Positions 6,086 through 49,068 of a DNA stretch of 64,000 bases are shown here, one piece after another. The stretch's first letter is position 1. Each line of letters begins with the position of its first letter. The notes beneath the pieces are model-generated. The model was not told the DNA's origin and did no database searches. It saw only the letters and a program-made list of their open reading frames with translations. A program made the position numbers and the translations under genes. This DNA is from Camelus dromedarius (taxonomy: Eukaryota). The stretch covers positions 12,338,001 to 12,402,000 of the forward strand of contig NC_087436.1 of assembly GCF_036321535.1 (NCBI RefSeq). The letters run 5' to 3'.

Positions 6086-6304
<219 letters not shown>

Positions 6305-7012
6305 TAAATCAGGGGTGCTGCTCTTTTCTAAGAAGATCCAGCCTTCTCTTCTGGTGCGTGCAGGGGATCCTATAACAGGATTATAAATGAATCAGAAGAA
6401 ATCTCACTGAAGCACGGTGTGAAATATTTGAGAATCACATAGCATCCTACCTAAATATCTTTGTAGTTGCTGAACATTTAGAAAAAAATGCAAGTTTGAT
6501 CTGGTTCACGTTCAATGTGCTATTATGATCAAGCAGAACTACCTCTAAATATTTGTATAATGTATTCCATGTTAACTTTAGTGGTTTGATTTATAGGTTA
6601 TTTTTAGCAGATAGAAATCTGTAGTTTAGTCTTCAAAATTTTGTTTGTAATCTGACCTGGTTAGCTAAATTTTGCATTAATATATTTTTGTAAATCAAAT
6701 TTGGGATTTATCTCTCTGTTTTACAGAGCCTCATTGTTTTTCCTTTTATTTAATATGCAACACAATATTTTCCCTAATCCTAATCCCTAATTTGATGCTT
6801 ATAGATTCCAGCTGTAATGGAAGTCTTTAAGAAATAAAATATAATTTAGAAAAATATGGAAAATTTTAGACAAACGTGTATACTAATATTTTAATAATTT
6901 GAAGCCAATCTAATAATATATTCCATAAATGTTTAGTAAATGTCCTTTTTTTTCTTTTAGTTAAAAAAGAAATCAGTTAATTGTAGGTATTCACTGAAAT
7001 CATTTATCTTAT

Positions 7013-7028
7013 AGTGACACCTAGTGGC
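7013..7028 (-). promoter_or_regulatory. CTCF-like motif
   Basis: Reverse complement GCCACTAGGTGTCACT resembles the CTCF core CCACYAGRKGGCAS. Motif match only. Confidence 0.4.
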
Positions 7029-10000
7029 ATTTCCAGTGCATAAACTACTGAGACACCAGGAGAACTCTATCTTGTTGTAAAACAAAGCATGGTAGTCTAC
7101 AAATTCATCCACAGAGAAATTTTAGTGTAGTCATTTTTGTCATGGTTTTCTAATTATTGTTTTTTCTTTGACTTTCATTTTGTTTTAGAATCAGAACTTT
7201 AATTTATTCCATAGTCCAGTATCATTTGCCACTCTAGTATATTTTATTATGAGCATTAGATTTATATTGAAGTCTATTTGTAAGAAAGTGGATATTGTCC
7301 GGATATTGGTCTGATCCATGCTAGTATTAATTGGACTCCTCAGTAATACAAAAATAATTACTTCTCATGATTAATATAATTATTTTGATTTGAGAAAAAT
7401 CTTTCTTGGATTAAAAAAATTTTATACTGTTGAAAGATTTTTTCATACGTTTGATATTTACTCTTGAAATTTTTTTTTTTGATAATGTGTCATGTGTTGA
7501 AGGAATGGAAAAATTGGAATCCCATTATTTCATCAATATTTTTCTGACAGCACAGAGTTAATGGCATAATTTTTAAAATAATCCTGGCTGTCACAGATTC
7601 CAAGAACGGAGTGTGAAAATAGGCTATCAGAACTCTAGAAAGCTGATAGTGAAAGCTGATAGAGTATTTTTAAATTACTTACCTATAAATTTTTCTTAGT
7701 TTAATAAAAACTTAGTTTTACAGTTTCTCTTTTTATCTTTACCTTTACCTTAAATCTCAAGCTATATATTTCCTTACAGTTATAAAACTGTTATCTTATC
7801 TTACAACTATAAAACTCCATGACTTTAATTTGCACAGCCTCTGCTCTGGACCCTATTTACAGTGTTTGTATTACCATTAAGAATCCATTGGTAGGCTCTA
7901 ATTATATTATCCTAGAGACCATGTCCAATCCAATCCAATGGTATATATTCACATTTCAGGCACATACATTTACTTAACATAAACTACACATACTGAGTCC
8001 TCGAAAGAGCCATATGATGTAGGAACTATCTTCATCTTCAGAATAAAGAAATTAAAAATCTGAAGGCTTAATTAATTGGCAAAGATTTCTAAAATTATAT
8101 CAAAGCTTGAATTTTACCCTAATTCTGACTGTCTCCGGAGTTCGTATACTTTCCACTATGGTATATTTTCTCTTAACATAAACTTTAGATTAGGAAGAAA
8201 ACCAATACAAAACCGGATCTCTGTTATTTGAGCAACATGTAGAGACTGAATGCCTCCTTATGTAAGTTTTAAACAAATCCTTTGTCCAAAGTACCCAACC
8301 GACTAGGCTCATTTTATTTATTTGTTCAGTTTACATTCATTCAAATCCCCATGTGAGCAGCCTCAGTCACATTTTGTAGGCAGAATATGCCTTGGATGTT
8401 GTTTGATCCCATTCTGTCATCTCAGAAATGAAGATTTTGAGACTAAAACTTAAATAACAACCAAAGTAGTGCAAAAAAAATAACAGTTGGAGTTAGAGTG
8501 CTGACCTCCCAACTCCTGTCCACCTGCTCTTGTCAAAATTTTTGGCATTATCTGTTTGCTTGTTTGTTTTCTTCATGTGTAAATTTTTGCCGTCACTTAA
8601 CCAGCTGTCTTTGAATTTTCTGGGCAGATTCATTTTATACTGTTACTTTTGAGGAGACATACATGCTGAAATATTCTTTTGTACTGCCTACTGTTTATTT
8701 CTTTTGAAAGCTTTCTCTTTAGCAGTTTATTTATTCCACAGTTTTTCATCAAATATTTACTTGGTACCTGTTTTGAATAGGCGCTATGAAGTATTTGTAA
8801 TTCATAGGAAAAAAGTAGATATTTTGTGGGAATTTATTTAAAAAATGGAAGGAATCCTTCCTGTTGGCATCTTATAGTATGGTAAGTTAAACTTCTGATT
8901 CTCAGAAGTTTCTGAACTTCTGATTTTTTAGTTAGTTTCTACCAACAAGACAGCCAAGCCAGTACCACGTATGTCAATTTCCACTACACGTATAAAGCAT
9001 TTATTCAATGTTTACTGCCTTCTAGAATACATGTAACTGTTATTGATGGGCCCTGCAATATACATTGAGTAAATTTATATTTCTGCATATAATTTAAATT
9101 TTATCCACCAGAAAATCTTCTAATACTATGAATTTTGAAATTAGATGAATAGAAATATTAACAGTGCTTTATGACTATTTTTTCACAAGTAATACTATCC
9201 AAATCCATGGAAAATAGACTATTGGAAAGAGTCCTTTTTTCCTCTAAAAGTAGGTCCAAATTCTAAGCCAAATTTATTTTAATCAAGTAACAACCAAAAA
9301 GAAAAACCCAGCTCTTTCAATAAAAACATAGCATATTCTTTCAGAGGATATGGTGCTAAAACAGAAAAAGAAAGGAAATGTGGAGAGAAAATAATTTAAA
9401 ATATGCCATGTATGGTGGGATTTTTTTCTGTAGCATAAAGTATCATCCTATTTGTCAATGATATTTAAAAATCAAATATTACATTAATAAGTTCCAAAAA
9501 AAGAAACTATTTTGATGTAACTTAAATTATAATGCCTAAACTTATTTGGCACTCTCAGAGATTTAACATTTTACCAGGAAATTTAATTTCCAAATTAAAA
9601 TGAAGGCTGCCCTTTCTGAAACATTTTTAGTCATTTTTAACATCATTTATTTTGAGTATTGTCATTTTCTAGAAGTTTTCAGTAAAATCAAATAATGATG
9701 CCTCACTGTCATTTTCAGATTCACACAGGCTTTGTGAAATCTCCTTCCCCATTTTGTTCAAATACTTCATTTCCTTCCTGATTTCTGCTCTGAGCGGAGG
9801 CTAACAGAATCGTTTCTTCTGGATCTTGGTCTTTGCTTTGCTGCTTTGTTTGAAACAGGCACACGGAAACCAGCGCCTGTCCTATCTCACAGTCCACCCC
9901 TTCCTGGGTTGTGAAATAAAAGTAACTAGAGTGCTGACATTTTTTTTTTAACTTGAAAATAAAAAAAATCACTCAATTATATCAAACTTTGAGAATAAAT

Positions 10001-10249
10001 AGATTTTTTTTTTAGTATCTGTAAATGAGATTACACTGGTTTATACATTCACCTATTGACTTCAGAAATATTTTCCCAAAATATTTTACTAGCCTTCCAA
10101 AATATAATCCCTCCTTTCTGAAAAACAGATTAATAGTGCTTGAAATTATTTTTCAATTTTTCTGGCTTTTCTTTTCATACCTGAGTGGATGCCTAAAAGT
10201 GTAGATGATGGCATTTAAATGTCCTCACTAGAAAAAAATATCAATGATG

Positions 10250-10450
10250 ATGGCAGTGTACACTTGGATGGCTTTTCCTGTGGGCCAGGTGTCCTTCAAG
10301 AACTGTACATATTTTAGCCCATCACTCTTCACCTAGACCCTATGATGTAGGTACTATGTATGATCTCCACTTTAGGAATGAAGCCGGGGACAAAGTCCCA
10401 CAGCTAATGAAGAGCAGAGCTCAGATTTGTGTATCCAAGCCATTTGGCTG
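10250..10450. mobile_element. MIR SINE relic
   Basis: Degenerate MIR core 'accctatgatgtaggtactatg..ctccactttaggaatgaag..ccacagctaatgaagagcagagctcagatttg'. Confidence 0.6.
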
Positions 10451-11859
10451 TGGAGTTGCATCACAGGGAAAGGGCAGAGAGGTACCATGGTGGGAAAGGA
10501 AGGATGCTTGGCTTCCAGTCTGTGGGACTCATGAGATGATTCCCAAGACTGATCAGATTTCCAGCTTCCCATAGTGGTTCTAAGCACGTGTGTTTTGTCA
10601 CATGTTTACATCTGAAATAGTAGTAGCTATATCAATAGATTGTGCAAGACACCCCACCTAACCATCTGGAAGACAAAGGGACATTTAGATTCATCATGTC
10701 ACATGGTGAGGAAAGCCATTCTCATGACTGAAACCCTAGTTGGAAGCCCTTTCATATGTTAGCCACACAAAGGTCTCTGAATGTGCAGTTGTCTGTGACA
10801 ATGACCATAGTTTTGGTTGGGCTGACGTGTATTCAGACACAGCTGGACTGGATTCCATCCTTGGGATTCAGAAATATTTTGTTATTTAAAATCACCAAAC
10901 CACAATGTGGGTATACCATATACAAATCAAAAAACTCAACTAAGAATTTTAGCTGTCCTGACGCATCCTCACGGGGGGCTGCCAAGGGCTATCTGGCCAC
11001 AGATGACCATGCCACAGATACAGTTGTGTGTTGATAACCAGTGGCTTAGCCATCCAAATCTTTCCACACTGGAGTTTTGTTTTTGTTTCCTCTCAACTCA
11101 TCCCAGTTTTCTGGGGACTTTCCTGGTTTTAGTACTGCAACTCCTGCTTCCCAGAAACCTCAGTCTTTGGCAAATAAGGGTAGAAGGAAACTCTTACCTT
11201 CTCCTGACACCCTTCACAGCCCTCTTTTCCTCCCTCGCCCCAGCCATGTATGTTTGCACGTGTACTTACTGGAGGGAGCATTGCAAATTCCCTTTACTTT
11301 GATTTAATCTCTAGTCGTTGTAAAATTTGGGGTCTCAGACCACACACAGTTCCTGAGAAAATTTTGAAAATTTTATTCTCTAAATTACACTAAATGTAAA
11401 TTTTCATGCAAGTGTATTTATTTCTTTGGTATAATTTACCTCTACTGACAAAAGTAGTAACTGGTAAAGTGCATGTTTATTATTAGCTCTCTGAGAAACA
11501 AGCTGTAAAAAGAGCACTTAAATTTTTTGTTTGTTAAAAACACAACATATAACTGACTAGGTTCTGGAACTACAATGGTAACTACAATTAATGATGTGTG
11601 TATGTTTTCCCAACCAAGTTAGATAAATATTTCTAAATAAAGTAAAACTGTTCTGTATATTCTTTGTAGAGAGTTCTCTATGACATGTATACACATATAG
11701 CAGTTTTATATATTTTGTTGCTTTTAAGTTATCTCTTATTCCTCTGGATGCTTCAATTAAATTATTAAGATTAAACTCAAATTAAGGCATTGACCTTTTC
11801 CCCATGAAAACAGTTATTTAATACTGAAAACAATGTGAGATCTAACAATAAAAAAAAAA

Positions 11860-12100
11860 AATTCATTGAGCGTTACATATGGCAGAAACTGTTTTAAGTG
11901 ATTGTCACGTTTTACTTAAATTCTCAAAAGCCATTAAGATTGGTACTGTTATTATCATCTGCATTTTACTCTTGACCACTTTACCCTACAGATCAGAGAA
12001 GTGATGTCACTTATCGAAAGTCACCGAGCCGGTAGGTGTGGGAGGTGAGATCCCGACTCCGCAGTTTCTGTAGGGCCTGTGATGTATTCATTCTGCCATC
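11860..12100. mobile_element. MIR SINE relic
   Basis: 'attcattgagcgttac..ggtactgttattatc..cattttac..agagaagtgatgtcacttatcgaaagtcac' is MIR-like. Confidence 0.6.
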
Positions 12101-12205
12101 TCAATCTTACAATATGGGGAAAATGACTAATGGTGGAAATAAACACCAAACTTAGAGAGTGGTTAGACTACATTGAAAGCGAAATTGGAATAAACTGTTA
12201 AATAA

Positions 12206-12544
<339 letters not shown>

Positions 12545-13552
12545 TGATGATTGATATGATAACATATACAAATCAGCAGTACTTTTACCAAAAAAAAAGT
12601 TACATCATATTATTAATGGCTTGACAAATTATAACATGCCTCTTCTTCCCTTATTTTTCCATCTCTAGTGAATTTGTTCGATAATATCAAACAAGGCAGA
12701 TGAATTTGGTAGCTATACTTTCTAATTACTGTCCACATCTTTTTAAATTCATGTTTTCATTGTGCAAAAAAGTTAAATATTTAATAATCTAAAAGCAATG
12801 TACCTAAACATACATCTTTGACAATTTTGTAAACTTCCTAAATTAAAGCTTAAAGGAGAAAAAGCATATGCACACCATTCAAATTGGCCTTCCCCTCTCA
12901 ACAATCTGTTTGATAAGTGGCAGGGTCCACCACTTAGCCAGTACTGTTGAATGTTGTTGCATTGCAGTGTGTCGCTTGTGCACAGGACAGAGTGCCAGAA
13001 ACATGTCAGAGGGTGTCACCATGAGAAATAAGAAAAAGAAAAGCTTAGGATTTTCTCAGTGCTTTTTATCCCCAAGATTCACTGGATTATGGTCAGATGT
13101 TCTTCTGAATACGTTTTTTCCTGAAGATATTAATCTTATTTTTGAAATGTCTACCAGTATATATTGCTTAAATAATACTGAACTTGAATAATATTCAAGT
13201 TGGGATTCCTGTCCAAGTAGCAACTGAAATGGAATATAAATGCTTCTCGGTACATAGATTATTAAAACAAGAAGGAATAGATGATTTGTATTCTGAAAGT
13301 GGCTCTTCCTTGGAGCAGCTTCTGAAACAGATTTAATGTCCCTTGATCCCCTCTGAATTTCACACTATGTACTTGTAAATCAAAGGAACTTGGCTTAACA
13401 TTTTGGAAAAAACATCAAGTTCCAGAACTTGGAAACTGACTTAAGTATGTTGGAAGCCCAGCTATATCACTGATCAGCCTTATGACATTGAGTATATCAT
13501 CTGTTCTCTGAAACTCAGGTTTTTCTCATCTGTAAAATAAAGTCACTCTTAA

Positions 13553-13819
<267 letters not shown>

Positions 13820-18223: not shown

Positions 18224-20419
18224 GGGAGGTGACCAAGATGGCAAAGGAGGAAGATCCTGACCTCACCAATTACCAGTAATGAAATTGAATTAGTAATATA
18301 AATCTCCCAATAGGCAAAAATTCAGGAATAGACAGCTTTACAGGTGAGACCTATCAAATATTTAAAGAATAGGTAACATTTATCCTTCTCAAACTAGTCC
18401 AAAATATTGAAGAGGAAGTAATACTTCTGAACTAATTCTACAAGGCCAACATCAACCTGATACCAAAACCAGACAAAATCATCACACACAAAAAAGGGAA
18501 AAATACAAGACCAATATCACTGAAGAACACAGATGAAAAATCCTTAACAGATACCAGCATACCAAATTGAATAATACATTAGTGGGATCATGCACCATGC
18601 TTAAGCAGGATTTCCACCAGGAATACAAGGATGGTTCAATATCTGCATATCAATCTCTGTGCTATACCACATTAACAAGCTGAAGAATAAAAACCATATA
18701 ATCATCTCAATAGATGCAAAAAAGCTTTTGACAAAATATCCATTTATGATAAAAAAAAAAAACTCTCAAGAAAATGGGTATAGAGAGACTATACCTCAAC
18801 ATAATAAAAGCCATATAAGATAAACCAGCAGCCAACATCATACTTAATGGTGAAATTTTGAAAACATTTTCTCTAAGATCCGGAACAAGACAAGGATGCC
18901 CACACTTATTGTTTTTATTCAACATAGTATTGGAAGTCCTAGCCACAGCAATGAGACCAAAAGAAAAGAAAAAAAGAAAGATAAAAAGAAAAGAAAATAA
19001 AGAAAAGGAATTCATGGGAAAAGAAGAAGAGTCACTGTTTAGAAATGAAATAACAGTATATAAAGAAAATCCTAAAGAGGCTACCAAAAATATATTAGAA
19101 CTAATAAATGATTGTAGTACAGTTGCAGGATACAAAATTGATAAATAGAAATCTATGCACACTGGCAAAAAACTATATATAAAAAAGAGAAAATATGAGA
19201 ACAATTTCATTTACATTTAAATTAAAAAGAATAAAATACTTAGGAATGAATCTAACCAAGGAGGTAAAAACCTGCATTTGGAAAACTATGAGACACTGAG
19301 AAAGAAGCTGAAGACACACAAACAAATGGAAAAATATACTGTGCTCATTGATTGAAATAATAAACACTATTAAAATGATCATACTCCCCAAGACAATCTA
19401 CAGATTCAACTCCTAAGTTAATACCAATGACATTTTTCACAGAATTAGGACAAGGAATTCTAAAATTTGTATGGAAATACAAAAGACCCCAAATAGAAAA
19501 CAGAACCTTGAGAAAGGAGAGCAAAGCTGGAGGTATCATGTGCCCTAATTTCAAAGTATACTCAAAGCTACTGTAATCAAAGCGGTATGGTATTGCCACA
19601 AAAACAGTCACATCAGTAAGCAGAATAGAATAGTGCCCAGAAATAAACCCAAGGTTATATGGTCAAATTATCAATGACAAAGGAAGAATATGCAATGAGG
19701 AAAAGACAGCTTCTTCAATAAGTGGTGTTGAGAAAACTGGACAGTTATGTGTAAACTAATGGGATTAGAAATTTTTCTCACACCATACAGAAAAATAAAC
19801 CAAAAATGGATTAAAGGCTTAAAAGTAAGACCAAAAGCCATAAAACTGTTATGAGAAAATGTAGGCAGTACACCCTTTGACATCAGTCTTAGCAATATTT
19901 TATTGAATATGTCTCCTCAGGCAAGGCGAGAAAAAGCAAAATAAAAAAAAAAATAGGACTTCATCATACTAAAAAGTTTTGCACAGTAAAGGAAACTATC
20001 AACAAAACATAAAGACCACCTACTGAATGGGGGAAGATATTTACAAATGATATATCTGCCAATGGGTTATTACTACAACATACAAAGAACTCATACCACT
20101 CAATACAAAAAACAAACAGTTCAATTTTTAAAAATGGGCAGAAGAACTGAATAGACATTTTTCCAAACAAGACATACAGATGGCTAAGAGGAACATGAAG
20201 ATGGTCCATATCACTCATAATAAGGGAAATGTAAATCAAAATCACAATGAGATATTACCTCACACCTGTCAGAATGGCTACAGTCAAGAAGACAACAAGT
20301 AATAAATGTTGGCAAGGATGTGGAGAAAAAGGAAACTTTATGCACTGAGGGTGTGATTGTAAATTGGTGCAGTCACTCTAGAAAACAGTACAGAAGTTCC
20401 TCAAAAAACTAAACGTATA
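18224..20419 (+). mobile_element. L1: ~45-bp 5' head fused to a decayed ORF2 (RT and downstream), cut off at 20419
   Basis: Head 'ggaggtgaccaagatggc..cctgacctcacc' directly followed by ORF2-like sequence. ORF 18858-19148 contains '[24 protein letters not shown]', the L1 RT motif. Confidence 0.9.
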
Positions 20420-23044
20420 GAGGGCCAAGATGGTGGAGTAGAACACTCTTAGCTCACCCTCTCCCATGAATTCACCAAGAGAGACATACATGGACTCACC
20501 CATTCACCCAGAACACCTGCTGAACTTTTGACAGAACATTGCCTACTTTAAAAGACAAGATTCCTCAAAAATCTGGTAGGAGGGCAAAAAAAAAAAAAAA
20601 AAAAAAAAAAAGAAGAAGAAGAAAAAGGAAATCAGTGTGGGACCTGATCCACGGGGAGGGAGCAGCAAAGGAGGAATAGCACTCCTACACTGGGACACCC
20701 CTTCTCCAACAGAGAGGTCAGTGGGGATGGAGAGGGAACCTCCGAGGCTTGGAGGAGTGCATGGCAGCCGCTTGGCTGATAGAACTGAGAGAAACCAGCA
20801 CAAAGGGCCCCTGCAATCCCAAGCCCTGGGCACAAGCCGTCAGGGGTGGGCCAGGACGGGCTGCCTGAGCCCAGGCAGAGGGCTGGGGCTGACTGTGCAG
20901 AGGCAGCCTCAAGGGACTGCAGTGTGCTGTGGGCTGTGGCTGGTAGTGTATACAGAATAGAACAGCATGGTCCTCCATAAAAAAATGCACTGTTGGTGCT
21001 CATTGGGGGAAGGTGCCCAAAGCATCTGGGCCATAGCCATTGTCTCCACAGGCCCATGGCACCATTGCTGGTGCACTCTCCCGAGAAGAGAGGCAGGACT
21101 CAGCTATAGCCATCATATTTGCTGGTGCATCAATCCCAGGCAGAGGCGAGGTTGAACCCTGAATCCATACCCAGGGGCTCTGCAACTTCACAGGTGGGAC
21201 TGAGATTTGTTTACAGCCCCAAGCAGAGGGGACCAATTTGTTGAACAGGTGCTTTATGGACCCACACTTCTAAGAAAAAATGAGCAAGGAGTGGAGTTCT
21301 GGAACACAGCAGGGGCAAGTGCAGGTGCAGAGTTTTCAGCAGATATACATACTATACATGGATGAGGTCTGGGGATGGCACTGACCAAGCAGTGCACCAT
21401 GGATTCAGGTATCTGATTGCATAAACACTATAGTGGACCTTGGTGCCTGACATTGGTGGATCTGAACTGGTAGCTCTGAGGGCACAGAACTTGGGAGACA
21501 TCAGAGCAGAGTACTGACATTCTTGCGATTAAAGCAGGGACAAGGGCAGCATCAACAAAGGGTACCTGAAGTGCTCCAACCCCGCCTACAGCACGCTGCA
21601 GGTCAGAAACACATCTGGAAGCCTCCATTCCAGCAAAAGTGGAACAGCCCCTGAGAGGGCTGTGCCAACCACAGTGCTAAAAGAAGGCCCTGCTCAACAA
21701 CCAGGGCAGGTTCTGATCACCACAACACTGGCTGCACCCCTAATCAAAGCTATAACAGCCAACACACATGGAAAAAAGACATGGCAACCATCTGTACTAC
21801 AAACAGACCTCATGAGAAAATTATTAGATGCATACTGTCTACACAGTAATGCATTCTCTTAAAAAACAGCTCTTCAGGACCACAGTAGCAAACTGATACT
21901 CCTTAATCCAGAGAGCCAGAGAGATATAAATGACATAAAGAAGCAGAGGAACTACTCCCAAATAAAACAACAAGAGATGTCCCCTGAAACAACAATCAAT
22001 GAAATAGAACTTAACAGTCTATTAGATCATGAAATCAAAAGGGATGATAAAAGGATGAAGAAAATAAGAGAGACTATGAATAAACATGCAGGATACTGTA
22101 AAAAGGAAACAGAAAATATAAAGAGGAACAAATTATAAATAGAAAACTCAATGACTGAGATAAGAGGCAATCTAAAGTCAGTAAAAAGCATACACAATAA
22201 TGCAGAGGGATGAATAAGTAACTTAGAAGGCAGGAAAACAGAAATCATACAATCAGAACAAGAGACAGAAAAGCAAGAGAAACCTAATGAAAGCAATATA
22301 AAGGACCTATGGGATAATATAAAGCATGCCAACCTATGCATAATAGGGGCCTCAGAAGGAGAAGAAGGAGAAAAGGGAATTGAAAAGATATTTGAAGAAA
22401 CCATGACTGAAAACTTCCCAAATCTAAAGACGGAATCAGATATCCAAGTACAGAAACCACAGAGGGTCCCAAACAAGAACACAAATAGACCTATACCAAG
22501 ACGTTATAATTAAGATGGCCAAGGTTAAAGATAAAGACATGATTCTAAAGGCAGCAAGAGAAAAGCAAATAGTTACAAGGGAACCCCCATAAGGCTTTCA
22601 GTTGATTTTTCAACACAAACATTGCAGGCCAGAAAGGAGTGGCAAGATATATTCAAAGTCCTGAATGAGAAAAAGCTGCAACCTAGGACACTCTATCCAG
22701 CAAGAGTGTTCGTTAGAATAGAAGGAGAGATAAAGAATTTCACAGACAAGCAACAACTAAAAGAATTTAGCAATACTAAACTTATGCTAAAAGAAATTTG
22801 AAAAGTCTGTTCTAAATAGAAAAGAAGCAGGATGCTATGGAAAGGGGAAAACCATAATTGGAAATACAATACCTACAATCAGTTGCCATAAAATAATGAA
22901 GACGTAAAAAAGGATATCAGAACCATGTAAGGTGGGAGAGGGGAGCAAGAAAATATAGACTTTTTCTTTTTCATTTTATCATTCTTTTTAGGATGTGTTT
23001 GAACTTATATAACTATCAGTTTAAAGTAAATAGATACAGTAATG
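20420..23044 (+). mobile_element. L1 5' UTR, decayed ORF1 and inter-ORF spacer, without ORF2
   Basis: 'ggccaagatggtggagtag' head, GC-rich 5'UTR, then ORF1-like A-rich region ~21930-22815 ('aaaacttcccaaatct', 'caggccagaaaggagtggcaagatatattcaaagt'). Confidence 0.88.
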
Positions 23045-24525
23045 GAGAAGGTGGCCAAGACGGCGGAGTAGATGGACACTCTTAGTTCAGCCTCTCCCAT
23101 GAATACACCAAGAGAGACATCCACGGACCCACCCATTCACTCAGAACACCTGCTGAACTTTGACAGAACATTGCGGACAATAAAAATGTAGAAGAAGAAA
23201 AAAGGAAATTACTGGGGGACTAGTTCTGTGAGGAGAGAACAGCAAAAGACAAATAACACTCTCATGCTGGGGCTCCCTCTCCAGCTGAGAGGTCAGCAGG
23301 GACAGAGGGGGAACCTCTGAAGCTCAGATCTGTGCAAAGCAGGCCTTGACCGAGAGAACTGAGTGAAATGAGCACAAAAGGTCCTCATTAGCAAATGGGA
23401 CCTAATTAAACTTACGAGCTTGTGCACAGCAAAGGAAACCATGAGCAAAAGAAAATGACAACCTCTGGAATGGGAGAAAATATTTGCAAGCGATGAGACT
23501 GACAAAGGCTTAATTTCCAGAATACATAAACAGCTCATACAACTTAATAACAAACGAACAAACAAACCCCAATCTAAAAATGGGCAGAAGACCTAAATAA
23601 GCAATTCTCCAATGAAGACAAACAAATGGCCAATAAGCACATGAAAAAATGCTCAGTATCACTAATTATCAGAGAAATTCAAATCAAAACTACAATGAGG
23701 TGTCACCTCACACCAGACAAAATGGCCATCATTCAAAAGTCCATGAACAATAAATGCTGGAGAGGGTGTGGAGAAAAGGGAAGCCTCCTACACTGTTGAT
23801 GGGAATGTAGTTTGGTGCAGCCATTATGGAAAACAGTATGGAGATTCCTCAAAAAACTAAAAATAGACTTATCATATGATCCAGCAATCCCACTCCTGGG
23901 CATATATCCAGAGGGAACCTTAATTCAAAAAGATACCTACACCTCAATGTTCATAGCAGCACTATATACAATAGCCAAGACATGGAACCAACCTAAATGT
24001 TCATCAAAGGATAACTAGATAAAGAAGTGGTGGTATATTTATACAGTGGAATGCTACTCTCAGCCATAAAATGATAAAATACTGCCATTTGCAGCAAGAT
24101 GGATGGACCTAGAGATCATCATTCTAAGTGAAGTAAGCCAGAAAGAGAAAGAAAAATATCATATGATATCACTCATCTGTGGAATCTAAAAAAAAAAAAA
24201 AGAGAAGAAAAAAGAAATGTACTTATATATAAAGCAGAAACAGACTCATAGACATAGAAAACAAACTTATGTTTACCAGGGATGAAGTGGGTGGGAAAGG
24301 ATAAACTGGGAGTTTGAGATTTGCAGATTCTGACTGGTATATATAAAATAGATAAACAAGTTTATACTGTATAGCACAGGGAACTATATTCAATATCTTG
24401 TAGTAGCTTATGGTGAAAAAGAATATGAAAATGAATATATGTAGATTCATGTGTGACTGAGGCATTGTGTTGTGCACCAGAAACTGATACAACATTGTAA
24501 ACTGACTATACCTCAATAACAAAAA
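23045..24525 (+). mobile_element. L1: ~340-bp 5' head fused to ORF2 C-terminus and 3' UTR
   Basis: Head 'ggccaagacggcggagtag..gaacacctgctgaactttgacagaacattgc' nearly repeats 20423-20542. At ~23390 it switches to 'caaatgggacctaattaaactt'. ORF 23812-24018 ([32 protein letters not shown]) is the ORF2 C-terminus. Ends 'tgtaaactgactatacctcaataa'. Confidence 0.9.
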
Positions 24526-25189
24526 TGTCATCCATGAATGTAGATAAATTAAATATCCTAATTATTTTTTTTAGCAATGACTTGTATAGAAACATGCCAT
24601 GTACATATACTTGTTAAGTTTAAGGATAAAACAAAAATTGAAAATGATCTGCTGGATGACAAAATAAAACTCAAAATTTTCTTTAGTTTAAAACACTGAA
24701 AAGTGATGCCCCAAACCAGATGATGATATTTAACAAATTAAAATAGCAAATTCAACATTTAGGTTCAAAGAACTTGTTGAATCATATGACACCTAGAAAA
24801 ATCACAAAACTTTGGTTGATTAGAAGTCCACAACATGAACCAAAAGTGAAACCCATCTCCTAGAAAAATTTTAACGTAAGCTCAGACTGTGTCTGCATTG
24901 TTCAGACCTTAAAAAGGGATTATTCCTTTGCACACATTGAACCACATCTAGGTTATTCTGTTCACCTTTACACACAACTCTCGAAGGACAAAATCAAATT
25001 ACATTGTCTGGCAAAGAACAACTAGGATGGTGATTTTTTTTATTCTTTCCTATTTTATTTATGTTCCTCTAGAGATAATCTATTCATGTATCAGACCATG
25101 TGTGTGTAATTATATATAAATATATATAATTATTTCATCCCACAGATGTTTTTTATTTCATTTTGTTTTGTTTTGTTTTTCGGTCTGGC

Positions 25190-26550
25190 TTTTTTAAAAC
25201 TGGAGTATAGTTGACTTACAATGTTGTGTTAGTTTCAGGTGTACAACAAAGTTACTTAGTTATATACATATATATTATATATATAATATTATATTATTCT
25301 TGATTATTTTCCATTATAAGTTACTACAATATATTGAATATAGTTCCCTGTACTATAAAACAAATCTTTGTTATTTATCTATTTTATATATGGCAGTGTG
25401 TATCTGTTATCCTATACTCCTAATTTATCCTTTTTCATGTGCCTGTCGGCCATCTGTATGTCTTCTTTGGAGAAATGTCTATTTAGGTCTTCTGCCCATT
25501 TTCTGATTGGGTTGTTGGGTTTTTTGATATTGAGTTGTATGAACTGTATGTGTATTTTGGAAATTAAGCCTTTGTCAGTTGCATCATTTGTAAATATTCT
25601 ATCTTAGTTTGAAGACTGTCTCTACTTTATTTATGGTTTCCTTTGCTCTGCAAAAGCTACTAAGTTTGAATAGATCCCATTAGTATAGTTTTGCTTTTAT
25701 TTCTTTTGATTTGGGACACTGACCCAAGAAAACATTGCTACCCTTATGTCAGAGAATGTTTTGTCCTTATTCTTTTCTAAGAGCTTTATGGTGTCATGTC
25801 TCATATTTAAGTCTTTAAGGAATTTTGAATTTGCTTGTGTGTATTGTCTGAGGGAGTGTTCTGACCTCATTGATTTACATACAGCTGTCCAGCTTTCCCA
25901 GCACCACTTGCTGAAAAGATTTTTTTTTCCTCCATTGTATATTCTTGCCTCCTTTGTTGAAGGTTCAGTAGCTGTGTAGGATTATTTCTGGACTCTATTG
26001 AATTCGATTATTCTATATGTCTGTTTTTGTGCTGATACCACACTGTTTTGATTACTATAGCTTTGTAGTGTTGTCTGAAGTCTCAAAGGGTTATGCCTTC
26101 AGCCTTCTTTTTTTCCTCAGGACTGCTTTGGCAATTCTTGGTCTTTTGTGGATCCATATAACTTTTAGGATTATTTGTCCTAGTTCTGTGAAAAATGTCT
26201 GAGTAATTTGATAGAGATTACATCAACTCTGTAGATTGCTTTGGGTAATATGGCCATTTCAACTATATTAATTCTTTCAGTCCAAGAAGGTAGGCTGTCT
26301 TTCCATTTCCTAGAATCTTTTTGATTTCCTTTATTGATGTTTTATTGTTCTCAGCACATCTTTTACCTCTGTGATTAGGTTTATTCCTAGGTATTTTTCT
26401 TACACAATTTTAAACAAGATTTTCTTTTTACTTTCTCTTTCTGATATTCCATTGTTAGTGTAAAGAAATGCAACATATTTGTGCATATTAATCTTGTATC
26501 CTGGTACCTTGCTGAATTCATTTATCAGTTCTAACAGTTTTTGTGTGGGG
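25190..26550 (-). mobile_element. 5'-truncated L1 (3' UTR and ORF2 3' part), antisense, with an internal deletion at ~25430
   Basis: 'tggagtatagttgacttacaatgttgtgttagtttcaggtgtaca' is an antisense L1 3' end. Antisense ORF2 'tttttcatgtgcctgtcggccatctgtatgtcttctttggagaaatg' follows abruptly. Confidence 0.88.
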
Positions 26551-27821: not shown

Positions 27822-27950
27822 TATTTTTTGGAGAGGAGATAATTTGGTTTATTTATTCATTTGTTTATTTTTTTAATGGGGGTACTGGGGATTGAACCCA
27901 GGACCTCACCAATGCTATGCATGTGCCCTACCACTGAGCTATATTCCCCT
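27822..27950 (-). mobile_element. tRNA-derived SINE, Vic-1-like (camelid)
   Basis: Reverse complement GGGGAATATAGCTCAGTGGTAG..GAGGTCCTGGGTTCAATCCCCAGTACCCCCATTAAAAAAATAAAC has A box, B box and an A-rich tail, resembling the camelid SINE as I recall it. Confidence 0.8.
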
Positions 27951-28539: not shown

Positions 28540-29290
28540 GGTTTTTACAGCAGCGCGGATGAAGACCGTCAAGCCACTGGCCGGCGCCAGCTCTCAGCGC
28601 CGGGGTGGGAGCTGGCAGGTCCTGTTTCCCAGGCAACGACTAAAACACAGGCCACGAATAAAGCATCGCTCTCCCCAGACCCAGAGGGCTGATATCATTT
28701 CCTTAGTCTGGGCGGTTGCCCCAGTGACTAGTCGGGCTGTAGGGCGGTGTTAGGTGCCCGAGAGACCTGGTGGCAGGGAAGTCACTTCCTCCCGGAGACG
28801 CTGTTTCCTAGCAACCGCCTCCCACCTCTGTTCTTCGTCCCGTCCCCCTCCCATCCCCGCAACCTCCCGCCTGCAAGCGCGGTCTCCGAGAGCAGCCAAG
28901 CGCAGGCCCAGGCGACGGGCTCCTGCCCGAAGCCCGCCGCTGGGTTCTCAAGCCGTGGGGAGCTGTCCGCGGGAATGCGGGGTGAATACAACTGGGGACT
29001 TGGGCGTCGCAGAGAATCGGAGCGTCGGCGGCCCTCGGCTGTGCATCCGCCTGGGTGGTGCAGGGCGCTCGGCCCGCCGTGCGGGGCGGGGCGGGGCGGG
29101 GCGGGGCAGGCGGGGACCCGGCGCCACCTGGTCGGGCTGGAGCGGTCCCAGCGCGCGCTGCGGCGGGCGGCGGGCGGCGGGCGGCGGGCGGCGGGGCCCG
29201 GGCTCTGGGCTCGGTCTCCAGCACTGGAAACGTTCACGGGACCGTTTGTACAGGGACTTTAATGCAGCCCATCGCGGAAGCCTCGTTTTG
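28540..29290 (+). promoter_or_regulatory. CpG island / promoter and probable non-coding first exon of the MAP9 copy
   Basis: The only strongly GC- and CpG-dense segment in the window. It holds X-box-like motifs, an inverted ETS pair, tandem GC boxes and a candidate donor GTGAAT at 28982, and lies ~0.5 kb upstream of the first MAP9 coding exon. Confidence 0.85.
28624..28815. promoter_or_regulatory. Three RFX X-box-like motifs and an inverted ETS pair
   Basis: GTTTCCCAGGCAAC (28624-28637), GTTGCCCCAGTGAC (28715-28728), GTTTCCTAGCAAC (28803-28815), and GGAAGT-C-ACTTCC (28777-28789). Confidence 0.65.
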
Positions 29291-29813
29291 TTTCATCTAG
29301 TATTATCAACGCTCTTGTGAGAGGGAAGAGTGACTGGAAGAATATCCCTATTTATAATCTTTTTCTTTCCTAGCGCTGTGCGCAAGCTATTTTTTTTCCC
29401 CCCTTGCTTCTAGTGGTGATTGGTCTTAGTTATATACTTTCTGCTGACAACAGTCGTCTTGGTAGCCATTTAAATAAGTATGACTGTTTTGTAGGCAATA
29501 TTATCCTTTTTGAATGGAACAGAGGAAGTTTCTGTCTTAACTGGTAACAATCTATTGCACTCATTTATTTGTTCATCCTTAATTGTAAAACTATTTTAGG
29601 ACAAGTTCAATTTGAATTTTTTTAAGCACAGTTTTTAGTAGAATTTGCTATTTCTTTACAAGAACTCTACATTTTTAAGTGAAGATGTAGTTCAGTGTTC
29701 ATATGATGCTTTTCTTTCTTTTTTTTTTTTTTGAAAAGGGGATGGAGCAATAAATGTAGTAATAGAAATTCTCAAGCATGCAAAAAAGTCTGATTTGTTT
29801 TTATATATTTCAG

Positions 29814-29967
29814 CCACCATCGGAGTACGAAATAGTCCTATCATTTGTTAGCCATTTTATAAAGGTAGAGAATTAAAACAAAGAAATACACACTGTCTGA
29901 TGAAGTTTTTAGCACACCTTTGGCATATACAAAGAGTCCAAAAGTCATCAAAAGGACTACTTTCCAG
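29814..29967 (+). pseudogene. MAP9: MAP9 pseudogene, first coding exon (start ATG absent)
   Basis: 'tttcag' acceptor ending at 29813 and CAG|GTAAAG donor. From 29893: CTG then SDEVFSTPLAYTKSPKVIKRTTFQ, matching the MAP9 N-terminus MSDEVFSTTLAYTKSPKVTKRTTFQ (recalled), with CTG where the ATG should be. Confidence 0.9.
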
Positions 29968-30690
29968 GTAAAGTGGTTTTTATTTTGAATGGTTTTACAA
30001 GGTAAACACTGTGCTAGGAATTTTGGACTTGAAAGTGATTCCAGAGCTGCCCTATGTAAAGCTGGAGTAAATCTCACATTTCTTTTGAGATTCTGCAGTT
30101 GACTGTATTTGGGTTCCAGGATTACCGACTCTTCTGTGTGGCTTTAAGACTATCAATACTGGGATCTTACTAAATTACAAGTTAAATTAGCTTTTAAAAG
30201 TTGAATAACAACTTCAAATTGCTATTTTCATATTAATTTAAAAATCTTTTTTTCTGGTATAGCATAGTAATATTTAAGCTTTTTCTGTCCAGTCTCTACA
30301 GTGTTGAACTCCGCCTCTAAATTTGTAGTATTGATTATATCTGCTAACAAAAACAGTTGAAACAAAAGATCATAAAGAATACCATTTTCTCCCAGAATGC
30401 CAGTTTATGATGAACTCTGTAGGAACTGAGCTTCTCAATGAATTTACTTGGTATTGTCGGTCTCCTTTAATTTAACTGTAAGCGCCATGAGGGAGGGATC
30501 ATGTCTGTGATGTTCTGCGTTGAGTCTGAAGGATTGGGTGCACGGAATAAGGTAGGCTTTCAGTGAATATTTGCTAGATGAATGAAACCTAAGCTTTAAA
30601 GCAGATATTAATCAAGCATTATTTGTTTCAAGAATTAAATATGAGACCTCCATATCTGAAGGGAAATTGATTTTAATTATCTCATTTCAA

Positions 30691-30773
30691 GATGAGCTAA
30701 TAAAAGCAATTACAGCTCGCTCGGCCAGACAAAGGAGTTCTGAATACACAGATGACTTTGAGTGATGAGACTG
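30691..30773 (+). pseudogene. MAP9: MAP9 pseudogene, second coding exon (acceptor lost, frameshift and stop)
   Basis: DELIKAITARSARQRSSEYTDDFE** versus recalled DELIRAITARSARQRSSEYSDDFDSDEI. Preceded by 'tttcaa' instead of 'tttcag'. An inferred 2-nt deletion gives TGA TGA at 30763-30768. GT at 30774. Confidence 0.9.
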
Positions 30774-31860
30774 GTACATGAGAAGATGGGAAAGGAAACC
30801 ACATTTCTTCTCTTTGCTTCTGTAGTTTCATTTAGCCCAACCCTCCAAGAAAATCACTAGGTTAAAATAATGCCTATGAATTCACTGGTTTTAGATCTCC
30901 AACTTTTTAATGAGTAAAAAGCCACTCTTAATTTTCAAGAATTTGTATGATTGTCCTTGGTTGTTTCTGAATGTGTATATGAAAATGAAAATTAACTGAC
31001 AGCAGACTGATTTGTCAGTGATAAACCGCACTGGAGAGGGCAAGTTCATCTTAAAGGTCAACCCTATGAGACATACAGAGAGTCCATAACTAGGGCCTAT
31101 AGAGCTAAACTTGGTGCACATCAGAATCTCTTTTATAGTGCTTTTTATAAATCACGTGTTTTGGCTGTGAAAGGGGGTCTGTTTTAAAAACTCAATCAGT
31201 ACTATAATGATTAATTTGATTTCTTTTGATTATGTAAAAATACTAACATGTTGCATTTCAGGATAAACATACGAAATTCTAAATTGGAAATTCAGTGTTT
31301 TATACTTTAATATTTAGTAAAAAACTCAATGCTCTCTGTAAAAGTAATCAGAACAATTGTTAACTCATTGCTATATAGCTAGGTTAGCATTCTTTATTAG
31401 TCTTCTCATAATAAAATCTAATCTTCTGGTATAGATGGAATTGTAGTTCCAAATTTTTTATGGAAAAACATATAGTTAGCAAATTCTTCCATTTATGAAT
31501 ATTCTTGATTTTGTTTGATGAAGTTTTGCAAATAAAAGCTTTCCAGTCCAAAATCTAATTTAAATCTCCATGACTGTTATTTTGAAGAACCTTTGGATGA
31601 CTTTTCTCAGAGGAAACACACTGCTTAGCTTGACATACCATTCACACTTGATAAGTATGTTTTGAATAAATGAATGAAGTTGAAATTTTTATTTTATAAA
31701 TGCCAATAAAAACTGCCTACTTTAACTGTTTTTTAGAGCTGCAAATCTATTCATAGTTGTAAGTTCATTTCTAGTCTTTAAGGTAATCTTTTTGATTAAT
31801 GTAACCTTTAAAACTTTAAAATATTCTGTTGAAAGCATTTTTTCCTCTTTTATTTTTTGA

Positions 31861-32181
31861 TTCCCTTAGGTGATTTTTCTAACTCCTCAGTAGATGAAAA
31901 TTCACTTAAGAAAAACATAAATGATTTTCATATATCAGATGATGAAGAAAAGAATTCTCCAAAAGTGTCTTTTTTGAAAACCAAGAAATCAAACAATGAT
32001 GTGAGGCAATTTGAGCCAGTAGCCTCCATCAGAAACGAGGAGGAGATGGCACCCACTGGAGGTGAAGACATGGCGGTGAATCGCTTATCGGAATCTCAAA
32101 GTAAACAACAAGAACCTGAAAAAGAGCAAATTAAAACAGAAATTAAACCCAGAATACTTCCAATCAAAAGCTCATCTCCAG
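31861..32181 (+). pseudogene. MAP9: MAP9 pseudogene, third coding exon (321 bp, open frame, acceptor altered)
   Basis: ORF 31857-32216: LGDFSNSSVDENSLKKNINDFHISDDEEKNSPKVSFLKTKKSN..NEEEMAP..KPRILPIKS matches MAP9. The expected acceptor reads 'ttttga'; an alternative AG is at 31868-31869; donor GT at 32182. Confidence 0.9.
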
Positions 32182-33691
32182 GTAGTTGGTTAGGATACTA
32201 TAATTGCATTTCTTGAGAATTTATTTTAAGATAATCAATCACAAAATATTTTTAGATAGTAGCTAGTAAATAGGGAAAAAATCAGGCTTTTAAAATTTTA
32301 CAGCTATAAATCAAAATTAATAGAACCATAGAGAAATGCCATAATTCTGATGTCCAGTTGTATATTCAGTGTTGTCATCTCAGATGATGGCTGACGGGAG
32401 GCCGCAGTACCTTCAGTCATCCACAGCTGTGGCTCCGAAGCTCGTGGGTCCAGCCTCGCCTAGGCTATGAGCTCCATTTTTGTTTTTAGCAGTGGAGCCA
32501 CAAAGGAGTCCTTTCTAATTCATCTCACACTCCAGATATGAGGATTATAGCAGCATTGGGGCGAGTCCTTAAAACAGTCATTTCCATGCAACTATTTGCC
32601 AGAATATTTGTTTGACGTTTGTGTATTTGAAGGGGCTGTTTTGTCGCTGCCGTCACTGTTGAAGCCTCTGGACCTTCCTTAAGAAAAGAGAATTTCCATT
32701 TGGTTTCTCTGTTCCCCAGGAAAACCTGCTAAACCTCAGTTTTCTGAGGGGAATTTCCTGGTGTGATATTACAATAGTTTCTCCACAGTTGTACTGAGCT
32801 CTGGGCACAGGGCAGCAGAGATGGCGTAAAGCAGGCACCAAGCACTGTGACATCCCCTGGGCTGCCATGCAGAGAGAAGGGCGTGGAAGCTTAAGGGTTT
32901 GGGGGTTTTCCAGTCTTTTTCTGTTTCATAGAAAAAAATAGTAGCTGATGCTAACCTTAATAAAAATCTCTTTCCTTTACATCATCATTAAATATGGTAC
33001 TGGTAAGTATTTCATATTTTACGTATTAGATAGCACTGGTAACCTCAGGCAGAGCTTTATTTCATCCATGTATTAGGACCCATTCTTTTTTCCACTCTCA
33101 CTATCCCATCTACTTTCAAGTGGGGAGAAGATATGAGCAAGCAGGGATAGTGGGGAAAAAGCCACTGGATGTCAATTAAAGATAGGGTTAGCCTTACTGT
33201 CCTCATGAGGACGGGGGGTCCTGTCCTTCCTTCCTACGGAATTGTTTTAAGAATCTACTAAAGTATGTCTCAAACTGTAAAATTCTACAAAAACATAAGC
33301 ACAAGGCCGAATGAGAAACAGAATTAACGTGCTAAAATGCACCTTCCCAGTGTACCAAGTAGAATCAAAAATGCAGAGAAGGGAAATGTAATCAAACAGT
33401 GATTTAATTCCGTATGTCACCATTTCCCAAAGTACATTCCATGGTTTGTTCACTGGTATTAAGGAGAAAACAGAGTCATAGAAATTTTAAACTGATTTGA
33501 TTATGAGAGAACTTCTTGGAGCCATTAATAAAGAAATATGCACAAGTGACTCTTCAAGAAAGATAGAGTAGGCAGTGTTCCTTGGCCCTAATTGAGTTTA
33601 GAAACCTCTTTTTGTGGATTATGTTTGTCCTGATTCTGAAAAGCTTTTCATTAGATTAATAAGAAAATGTGAGCATATCATAGAAGCTAAA

Positions 33692-33806
33692 TTTTTTTTA
33701 CATTTTTGCTCACTTTTTTTTTAAATTGTACAGTCAGTTAAAATGTGTCAATCTCTCGTGTACAGCACAATGTCCCAGTCATGTGTATACATACATATAT
33801 TTGTTT
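33692..33806 (-). mobile_element. Very short L1 3'-end insertion with TSD
   Basis: Antisense L1 tail 'cagttaaaatgtgtcaatctctcgtgtacagcacaatgtcccagtcatg' flanked by ATAGAAGCTAAA at 33680-33691 and 33807-33818. Confidence 0.8.
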
Positions 33807-33947
33807 ATAGAAGCTAAAAATTATTCTGATATATATAGAAGTATGTAATTAGAACTTTATGGTAGATAATCAGCAATAATCTGCCTATTTAATACCTTTT
33901 CTAAAAAACCTGCGACAAATTAAAACAAATAGGGAAATACTGTATTT

Positions 33948-33965
33948 GACCACAAGATGGCACCA
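33948..33965 (+). promoter_or_regulatory. CTCF-like motif
   Basis: GACCACAAGATGGCACCA closely fits the CTCF core CCACNAGRKGGCRS. Motif match only. Confidence 0.5.
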
Positions 33966-34939
33966 GGATTCTAAATGTGCAATACTGTATTTTTAGGCAA
34001 TTGCTAACCATTTGCAATTCAGTATATGTATTATTAAAATAATCGACAAAATAGGTAGTCATTTACATTTGATTATAAAACAAAGCACTTTGATAATATG
34101 TAGACTTACTTTTTTTCTTTCTGAAAACTTGACAGTGCTTCTGGAAGTGGAATTTTGGTATAAAATACACTAAAATTATTATTCGTATGTTATTCAGGTT
34201 GAAAAAAAAAGTTGAGGCTATTGGTTAGTGCCTAGCATGTAGAATTCATTAAGTATTTGAATGTATAAATGTGTAAATGAATGAGCCATTCATGAAAGAA
34301 GGAATGTGGTTCATGAGCTTAGCTTTATCTTTCTCTAAAGTTTTAGACTTTTTATTACAAAGTTTAGAACTTAATATTTTTAATGTGGTGAGATATCGCT
34401 GAGTGTCATTTAATGCTTTACAAAAACACTAGAACCTGAAAGTCTCCTTTATTCTTGCTTGTCCTTTGTAAAAAGTACAATTATCACCTCTTTCACTTTA
34501 TCAGGTAATGGTCACATTGGTAGTGGGTGTAGAAAGTAATTTCTACAGGGTATTTTTTTTTAATTTTAACATTAAAATGACTAAAATCATGAATTTTGGA
34601 GTCAGGGTGCTCCTGCTTTAATCCCACAAGCTAGAGTTTAGGTCCATGGGCACACGCCCTCTCTGTTCTCATTTTATTAATCTGTAAAATGGGGACAGTA
34701 GTTGAACCACCACTAGGGGTTTAAGGCAATTAAACAAGTTCCTGTACCTGAAGTGCTCAGAGCAATCTTGGCATAAATTGAGCCCTCTGTAATGCTTTTC
34801 CTACTCATTGTATTATTCAGCGTTTGTTCCTTAGCAGATCATTTTATTTATCCACCCAATTCATCGTGGGTAACATATATTTCACTGTGATGGTAAGTGA
34901 GGCTACGACAGTCCAGAGACCTAGCACCAGTCCTCCAGG

Positions 34940-48762: not shown

Positions 48763-49068
<306 letters not shown>

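What the first reader, a model, noticed from the sequence alone, without database searches (positions are those of the whole stretch)
28540..32216. Unprocessed, truncated MAP9 pseudogene ~15 kb downstream of the TLL1 stop codon
Seen: three intron-separated exons translate to the MAP9 (ASAP) N-terminus with four separate lesions. These are no initiator ATG (CTG at 29893), acceptor AG to AA (30689-30690), a 2-nt deletion giving TGA TGA (30763-30768), and GA instead of AG at 31859-31860. No further MAP9 exons, including the K/E-rich microtubule-binding region, were recognised in the remaining 32 kb. Known: dog carries MAP9 next to a duplicated MAP9 pseudogene, and deletion there modifies RPGRIP1 retinal disease. 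Inference: this is either a partial segmental duplicate or, less likely, the remains of the only MAP9 copy in this lineage.
Basis: partly seen in the sequence, partly recalled or inferred. Interest (0 to 1): 0.75.

Follow-up and report, generated by a model that had tools for sequence, protein, structure and literature searches.

The report
Relic of a relocated camelid gene
This broken piece of the cilia gene MAP9 appears to be the original gene, left to decay at its old address after a full working copy moved to another chromosome in the ancestor of camels and alpacas.

Summary
MAP9 coding exons 2-4 lie 16-18 kb past the TLL1 stop, with no ATG, a broken exon-3 acceptor, a 2-nt deletion and no exons 5-14. 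The fourth lesion is bypassed by an in-frame AG 9 nt downstream. TLL1-MAP9 adjacency is the pig and whale arrangement, and cattle keep MAP9 between CPE and NPY2R, so this is probably the ancestral site. Intact camelid MAP9 (620 aa, about 30 kb with introns) sits on chromosome 32 between PTPN11 and RPH3A, in a block homologous to human 12q. The relic groups with camelid MAP9 (support 75/82) but outside the camel-alpaca pair, and has decayed like neutral DNA (11:1 private changes in the conserved part, p=0.004). Best reading: DNA-based duplicative transposition on the camelid stem, then loss of the parent. It is not MAP9 loss and not a dog-like tandem duplicate. The relic keeps a CpG island and three X-box-like motifs. 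Transcription and base-level read support were not tested. The process is of a known kind; I found no report of this case.

The parts
6077..13819 (+). Last three coding exons of TLL1 seen by tblastn (about 6077-6298, 12248-12497, 13685-13819; stop TAA 13817-19). Synteny anchor.
18300..26546 (.). Cluster of LINE-1-like fragments in both orientations between the TLL1 3' UTR and the MAP9 relic. The join between TLL1 and MAP9 flanks must lie between the TLL1 3' UTR and 28113.
   Evidence: self-BLAST to the long repeat at 42.5-47 kb; the L1 label is my reading, no repeat library was run
27877..27948 (-). tRNA-derived SINE; resembles the camelid Vic-1 SINE (name recalled)
   Evidence: Rfam tRNA hit 40.1 bits
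28113..28217 (+). MAP9 upstream flank, homologous to DNA upstream of rhinoceros MAP9
   Evidence: tblastn of the over-extended rhino gene model P0025, E 3e-4
28540..29317 (+). CpG island with the presumed promoter, non-coding exon 1 and start of intron 1 (exon-1 limits not determined). Three RFX X-box-like motifs start at 28624, 28715 and 28803.
   Evidence: GC 0.68, CpG o/e 0.87 against 0.24 window-wide; 3 motifs against 0.03 expected per shuffle; homology to rhino MAP9 5' region over 28601-29317, E 7e-17
29814..29967 (+). MAP9 exon 2; CTG at 29893-95 in place of the start codon; splice sites intact
30691..30773 (+). MAP9 exon 3; acceptor AA (30689-90); 2-nt deletion giving TGA TGA (30763-68). 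The shift also brings an ATG at 30752 into the MAP9 frame.
31861..32181 (+). MAP9 exon 4, open throughout; canonical acceptor lost (GA 31859-60), tandem AG at 31868-69 intact and in frame; donor intact
   Evidence: genomic read-through ORFs of other mammals show the ancestral acceptor context
32182..34670 (+). Remnant of intron 4. Homology is clear to 32381, with weak collinear traces near 34361 and 34624-34670. The 3' break lies beyond this and exons 5-14 are absent.
   Evidence: rhino model P0025: E 1e-5 at 32319-32381; the later traces score no better than chance (E 0.68)

Best explanation
The window is the ancestral even-toed-ungulate site of MAP9, directly downstream of TLL1, and the broken copy is the original gene. 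On the camelid stem the whole gene (about 30 kb, with introns) was copied as DNA into the gap between PTPN11 and RPH3A on what is now chromosome 32. The new copy took over. The parent lost constraint at about that time, collected a start-codon loss, an acceptor loss and a frameshift, and lost exons 5-14, which encode the microtubule-binding domain. It can make no MAP9 protein. SHOWN: anatomy and lesions; an intact copy on chr32 among human-12q genes; functional MAP9 next to TLL1 in pig and (by accession order) whales; neutral-like decay. INFERRED: that the window is camelid and lies on chr2 between CPE and NPY2R; the camelid-stem date (roughly 27-45 My from a recalled rate); two steps rather than one; the molecular route (repair-templated insertion or circular intermediate, untested).
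For: Intact copy: alpaca MAP9 g4141 chr32:11,371,615-11,401,552(-) lies between PTPN11 (11,417,403-11,471,428) and RPH3A (11,110,592-11,296,320). The dromedary and Bactrian orthologues span 29.5-29.6 kb on scaffolds whose neighbouring genes map to cattle BTA17:64-65 Mb, while cattle MAP9 is at 1.9 Mb. A wild-camel gene model fuses PTPN11 to MAP9 exons (P0092). Human MAP9 spans about 29.5 kb, so the moved copy kept its introns. Ancestral site: pig MAP9 in SSC8:42.6-42.7 Mb with TLL1 within 200 kb; cattle order CPE(+), MAP9(+), NPY2R(-); TLL1 and MAP9 accessions within 16 numbers in 5 of 7 cetaceans with both records. The alpaca chr2 block FG-LRAT-RBM46-NPY2R-[635 kb]-CPE-MSMO1-TMEM192 is collinear with cattle but lists no MAP9, and dromedary has one accession number free between CPE and NPY2R. 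Tree: relic sister to Camelus+Vicugna, 75.5/82; placement inside either genus rejected, AU p about 7e-5; 4 clear shared derived residues. Decay: private changes relic:camel 11:1 in residues 1-88 and 8:13 in 89-160, Fisher p=0.004, p=0.011 with the published 1-98 boundary. The relic's own rate is flat across both parts (p=0.65-0.81).
Against: Camelid TLL1 was not located directly. The alpaca table row labelled TLL1 sits among human-8p genes between SFTPC and PHYHIP and is, by position, BMP1. Bactrian has no free accession between NPY2R and CPE. Accession order is only a proxy for gene order; Kogia does not fit and fin whale has the genes on different small scaffolds. Four deeper placements of the relic are not rejected (AU p 0.07-0.08). 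By raw identity the relic is closer to whale MAP9 (up to 81%) than to camel MAP9 (76%). No nucleotide sequence of the chr32 copy was available, so duplication ends and date are unmeasured. The species of the window is inferred.
Confidence: 0.78

Rival explanations
1. One-step move with staggered ends. A single event lifted the gene out, duplicating the 5' 6.5 kb or more (promoter to intron 4) and leaving the donor truncated from birth. Same direction as the best reading, different mechanism.
For: The relic decays at one rate in conserved and variable parts (11/85 against 8-12/72), as expected if it never worked after the event. The flanks stay collinear with cattle.
Against: A null donor and an unlinked insert would both have to spread. 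Copy-then-lose needs only ordinary events and also predicts a short overlap. The counts are too small to tell 0 from several million years of overlap.
Confidence: 0.12
2. Older duplication. The two copies split before or at the cetartiodactyl radiation and different lineages kept different copies.
For: Basal placements are not rejected (AU p 0.07-0.08); raw identity is higher to whales than to camels; delphinids carry two MAP9 genes.
Against: The ML tree and 4 shared derived residues favour the camelid stem. The delphinid second copy is 97-98% identical to the first, on the same chromosome as TLL1, and nests inside toothed whales (bootstrap 100), so it is independent. The relic's private change fits d of about 0.06-0.07.
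Confidence: 0.05
3. One reading: a partial segmental duplicate derived from the functional gene, as in dog.
For: It is partial, unprocessed and has an intact paralogue. MAP9 has duplicated in dog and delphinids.
Against: It would have to land back at the ancestral address in the ancestral orientation, with upstream flank attached. The intact copy is the one out of synteny.
Confidence: 0.03
4. Lineage loss of MAP9 (only copy), or an assembly artefact.
Against: Intact MAP9 in four camelid species. Runs from 5 studies without a possible source sample hold 95% or more of the words. An unnamed contig ORF, P0355, matches the relic's exon 4 and intron read-through at 80 of 82 residues. 19 private residue changes cannot be base-calling noise.
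Confidence: 0.02
5. Not exclusive of the best reading: the relic is still transcribed and does something, as a promoter or enhancer, a non-coding RNA, or a 122-codon acidic ORF from the ATG at 30752 through exon 4 into intron 4.
For: CpG island kept at o/e 0.87, three X-box-like motifs, 4 of the 6 canonical splice sites bordering exons 2-4 intact plus a rescue acceptor, exon 4 open.
Against: An open exon 4 is expected by chance (P of no new stop 0.38-0.44 at d 0.06-0.07). Residues invariant in other mammals are changed inside that ORF. The ATG context is weak and has upstream ATGs. No named camelid protein of this kind was among 15 hits of 58-186 aa. CpG islands can stay unmethylated without selection (recalled).
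Confidence: 0.12

Closest known systems
MAP9/ASAP gene (Venoux et al. 2008, PMC2551623; passages read)
   Same: Exon phases and N-terminal sequence of exons 2-4; GC-rich upstream region.
   Different: No start codon, frameshift, no exons 5-14 (C-terminal MAP domain). That paper calls the gene single-copy and invariably syntenic in the species it examined; camelids break both statements.
Dog MAP9 partial pseudogene (Forman et al. 2016, not read; seen through passages of PMC10464610 and PMC5634483)
   Same: Partial MAP9 pseudogene coexisting with an intact gene.
   Different: Dog: neighbouring downstream pseudogene, similar enough for a 22-kb deletion to give a near-normal fusion protein. Here: 5' exons only, 76% identical at protein level, on another chromosome than the intact gene, and at the parental site.
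Genomic (non-retro) gene transposition with loss of the parent, e.g. marmoset UBA1, 68 kb from Y to autosome (PMC4446799; passages read)
   Same: Intron-bearing copy on another chromosome replaces the parental gene.
   Different: That case is driven by Y decay. This one is autosome to autosome, with the parent's 5' part still readable.
Individual gene translocations between chromosomes (PMC13689697; abstract and outline read)
   Same: A single gene on an unexpected chromosome, shared by a clade.
   Different: That survey covers invertebrates and reports under 1% of families per 100 My; it does not concern mammals.
Delphinid MAP9 / MAP9-like pair (RefSeq records)
   Same: A second MAP9 copy in a cetartiodactyl lineage.
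   Different: Same chromosome, 97-98% identical, both largely full length, and a TLL1-adjacent copy is still annotated as coding.

Membership tests
Unprocessed pseudogene | Introns and flanks retained | tested here: met
   Three exons with introns, CpG island, upstream flank and intron-4 remnant homologous to rhino MAP9
Unprocessed pseudogene | Disabling lesions | tested here: met
   No ATG, acceptor loss, frameshift, exons 5-14 missing; modelled splice forms give 27-49 aa from the old start position
Unprocessed pseudogene | Loss of purifying selection | tested here: met
   11:1 against 8:13, p=0.004; p=0.011 with the published boundary. Protein level only; no dN/dS.
Unprocessed pseudogene | Lesions fixed and present in reads | tested here: inconclusive
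   Word-level presence in runs of two organisms; no base-level pile-up
Unitary pseudogene (gene loss) | No functional copy in the genome | tested here: not met
   Intact 620-aa MAP9 in four camelid species
Tandem partial duplicate (dog type) | Intact copy adjacent | tested here: not met
   Intact copy between PTPN11 and RPH3A on chr32; none in the window
Parental relic of DNA-based duplicative transposition | Dead copy at the outgroup-defined ancestral site | tested here: met
   Pig, whales and cattle gene order; accession order is a proxy and cattle TLL1 was not in the table
Parental relic of DNA-based duplicative transposition | Live copy at a new site between genes that are neighbours in outgroups | tested here: met
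   Human-4 gene between two human-12 genes; flanking genes at cattle 64-65 Mb against MAP9 at 1.9 Mb. Direct PTPN11-RPH3A adjacency in human is recalled.
Parental relic of DNA-based duplicative transposition | Live copy keeps introns (not a retrocopy) | tested here: met
   Spans 29.5-29.9 kb in three camelids against about 29.5 kb in human
Parental relic of DNA-based duplicative transposition | Both copies descend from one lineage-specific event | tested here: inconclusive
   Support 75.5/82; deeper placements not rejected
Parental relic of DNA-based duplicative transposition | Insertion junctions (microhomology, target-site change, permuted order) | not testable with these tools
Transcribed pseudogene | Stranded spliced RNA from the locus | not tested

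The most novel reading that the evidence does not exclude
After MAP9 moved chromosomes, its old RFX-type CpG-island promoter stayed alive and was kept by selection, now driving a non-coding RNA or a 122-codon exon-4 product, or serving a neighbouring gene. The relocation would then have split a gene's coding and regulatory roles between two chromosomes.
Probability: 0.12. Interest if true: 0.65.

Novelty: new member of a known kind. Interest (0 to 1): 0.42.

Why it matters
It is a clean mammalian case of a single-copy autosomal gene changing chromosomes by DNA copying, with donor relic and landing site both identifiable, so junctions, date and expression change can be read from public camel and alpaca assemblies. 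In practice, synteny-based orthology would score camelid MAP9 as lost, and primers or reads aimed at exons 2-4 could hit the relic. With the dog and dolphin duplicates it suggests that MAP9 sits in a rearrangement-prone spot. It does not imply a phenotype: the working camelid protein shows no rate change against hippo, whales, goat or pig (10 of 10 relative-rate tests p>0.05).

Tried and rejected
No whole genome is held for this window, so copies could not be counted by tblastn; public protein records and a published ortholog table were used instead. A scan of metagenome contigs with the exon-4 peptide: 362 pattern matches, none confirmed. The alpaca table's TLL1 row on chr31 was first taken at face value and then dropped as BMP1. 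K/E-rich tblastn hits at 48.7-49.1 kb minus strand are a CTTT microsatellite and vanish with masking. The MAP9 hit in PMC5792482 was the word 'map' plus citation 9. Faster evolution of the moved copy was rejected (8 against 13, p=0.38). One search failed on one empty row (Desmodus), which was dropped; P0125 (48 aa, unrelated) and the N-terminally different Rousettus and Tursiops-like rows were also left out of the N-terminal tree. Gene symbols gave no hits in the supplements; Ensembl ids did. Earlier scan findings: none. No structure or complex prediction was run because no protein product is claimed.
Full report
1. What is in the sequence. The window holds the 3' end of TLL1 (stop 13817-19), about 8 kb of LINE-like fragments (18300-26546), then a CpG island (28540-29300; GC 0.68, CpG o/e 0.87 against 0.24 for the window) and three MAP9 coding exons on the same strand. 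All four lesions are at the coordinates given. The fourth is harmless to the frame, because a second AG 9 nt downstream gives the form without VSL seen in horse, pig, peccary and a dromedary model. From the old start position the three splice forms I modelled give 27, 32 or 49 residues. Nine full-length MAP9 proteins and an HMM of residues 161-end find no exon 5-14 on either strand (best E 1.3). Of 167 MAP9-like proteins, 472 hits fell on exons 2-4 and 8 elsewhere: 4 from an over-extended rhino model matching the relic's flank, island and intron 4, 2 from primate models running into intron 2, and 2 weak ones at 21.7-22.0 kb (E 0.025-0.036). The reversed-window control gave 0. Intron 4 is clearly homologous to 32381; traces to about 34670 are no better than chance one by one. 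The C-terminal microtubule-binding domain (PMC2551623, passages) is therefore absent.

2. Is it real? 14 of 24 listed runs hold 95-98% of 549 sampled words of 28500-33500. They come from two organisms and 7 studies, 5 after leaving out the two studies with a possible source sample. An unnamed contig ORF (P0355) matches the relic's exon 4 and read-through at 80 of 82 residues. No reads were laid, so each lesion is not confirmed base by base.

3. An intact copy exists. The exon-4 peptide found 120 proteins among 330 candidates. Intact 620-aa MAP9 is annotated in dromedary, Bactrian camel, wild camel and alpaca, on sequences of 24.9-28.9 Mb. I take the window to be camelid from shared derived residues, a tRNA-derived SINE like Vic-1 (name recalled) and run sizes near 2 Gb; this is inference.

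4. The intact copy is the one out of place. In Supplementary Table 6 of the alpaca genome paper (PMC6598621; main-text passages, searched rows of Tables 5 and 6, part 1 of Table 6), MAP9 is at chr32:11,371,615-11,401,552, 16 kb past PTPN11 and before RPH3A, both human-12 genes. Chr32 is the human 12q/22q homologue and chr2 the human-4 homologue. Dromedary and Bactrian orthologues (the same accessions as P0128 and P0010) span 29.5 and 29.6 kb, on scaffolds whose neighbouring genes map to cattle BTA17:64.4-65.5 Mb. A wild-camel gene model fuses PTPN11 to MAP9 exons (P0092). Human MAP9 spans about 29.5 kb, so this is a DNA copy with introns, not a retrocopy.

5. The broken copy is at the old address. 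Pig MAP9 lies in SSC8:42.6-42.7 Mb with TLL1 within 200 kb (PMC7318759, passages). Cattle have CPE(+) at 0.55-0.70 Mb, MAP9(+) at 1.91-1.93 Mb and NPY2R(-) at 2.06 Mb on BTA17; cattle TLL1 was not in the table. TLL1 and MAP9 RefSeq accessions are within 16 numbers in 5 of 7 cetaceans with both records; Kogia is not, and fin whale has them on separate small scaffolds. In rhino they are 34 locus tags apart on one scaffold, so the adjacency looks cetartiodactyl. Alpaca chr2 keeps the cattle order around a 635-kb gap between NPY2R and CPE with no MAP9 listed; dromedary has one free accession in that gap and Bactrian none. I infer that TLL1 and this window lie in that gap. This is the weakest link: the table's TLL1 row is, by its neighbours SFTPC and PHYHIP, BMP1, so camelid TLL1 was not located directly.

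6. Date and decay. On 160 aligned columns and 26 sequences the relic is sister to Camelus+Vicugna (SH-aLRT 75.5, bootstrap 82). Placement inside either genus is rejected (AU p about 7e-5); four deeper placements are not (p 0.07-0.08). Against the reading, raw identity is 81% to some whales and 76% to camels; this follows from 14 changes private to the camelid gene. Private changes are 11 (relic) to 1 (camel) in residues 1-88 and 8 to 13 in 89-160 (p=0.004; p=0.011 with the published 1-98 boundary), and the relic's rate is flat across both parts. Constraint was thus lost close to the duplication. A neutral simulation matches 19-23 changes at d of about 0.06-0.07 and gives a 38-44% chance of no new stop, so the open exon 4 needs no explanation. 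With a recalled rate of 1.5-2.2e-9 per site per year that is about 27-45 My, between the recalled camelid origin (55-65 My) and camel-llama split (16-17 My). The moved gene evolves at an ordinary rate.

7. How it most likely happened. A DNA-level copy of the whole gene was inserted downstream of PTPN11 on the camelid stem, the two copies were briefly redundant, and the parent was disabled and lost its 3' part (0.78). A single staggered move gives the same end state (0.12). An older duplication (0.05), a back-inserted partial duplicate (0.03) and loss or artefact (0.02) are weaker. The direction alone, parent here and working copy moved, stands at about 0.9. The route of insertion is untested.

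8. Is the relic alive? The island is not CpG-depleted and has three X-box-like motifs against 0.03 expected (motif consensus recalled). The frameshift puts an ATG at 30752 in frame with exon 4, a 122-codon ORF with weak context. None of 15 short homologues is a named camelid product. I put a retained function at 0.12.

9. What is known. Dog has a neighbouring partial pseudogene (PMC10464610 and PMC5634483, passages; Forman 2016 not read). Delphinids carry a second, 97-98% identical MAP9 on the TLL1 chromosome. Intron-bearing transposition replacing a parent is known (marmoset UBA1, PMC4446799, passages), and single-gene moves are rare in invertebrates (PMC13689697, abstract). Listings from searches for MAP9 with pseudogene and duplication, TLL1, camel, RPGRIP1, pig and cattle locus terms, camelid names and TOGA terms showed no report of the camelid relocation. 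The library lacks most subscription papers, one supplement store gave no answer, and supplements of other genome papers were not searched. The chr32 position is visible in a 2019 table, so it may be recorded in genome-browser or TOGA data.

10. Verdict. New member of a known kind; interest 0.42.

Noticed in passing
window 40347-40659 (+): Full-length 7SK RNA copy, 215 bits, probably a retroposed pseudogene.
   Followed up: no
window about 36440-36690: LTR-like element (TATA and poly-A signals; my reading, no repeat library) near where exon 5 would be expected from recalled human intron length. It could mark the deletion end.
   Followed up: no
window 42500-47000 (+): Long, decayed LINE-1-like element related to the fragments at 18.3-26.5 kb.
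   Followed up: no
window 48730-49070: Long CTTT/CCTT microsatellite whose minus strand mimics the K/E-rich MAP9 C-terminus in unmasked tblastn.
   Followed up: yes
P0010, P0124, P0128, P0132 against P0126: Camelid RefSeq MAP9 isoform X1 (620 aa) lacks an internal stretch of about 22 aa that the dromedary GenBank model and most other mammals include; the moved gene may skip that exon.
   Followed up: no
P0149/P0150, P0153/P0019, P0157/P0162, P0161: Delphinids have a second MAP9 on the same chromosome, forming its own clade (bootstrap 100), independent of the camelid event.
   Followed up: partly
cluster of P0166: A TLL1 cluster holds sheep and goat MAP9 proteins, perhaps chained by a fused TLL1-MAP9 gene model, which would fit same-strand adjacency in caprines. 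The linking record was not seen.
   Followed up: no
PMC6598621 Supplementary Table 6, g19945: Alpaca BMP1 on chr31 appears mislabelled as TLL1, which may inflate the reported human-4 homology of chr31.
   Followed up: partly
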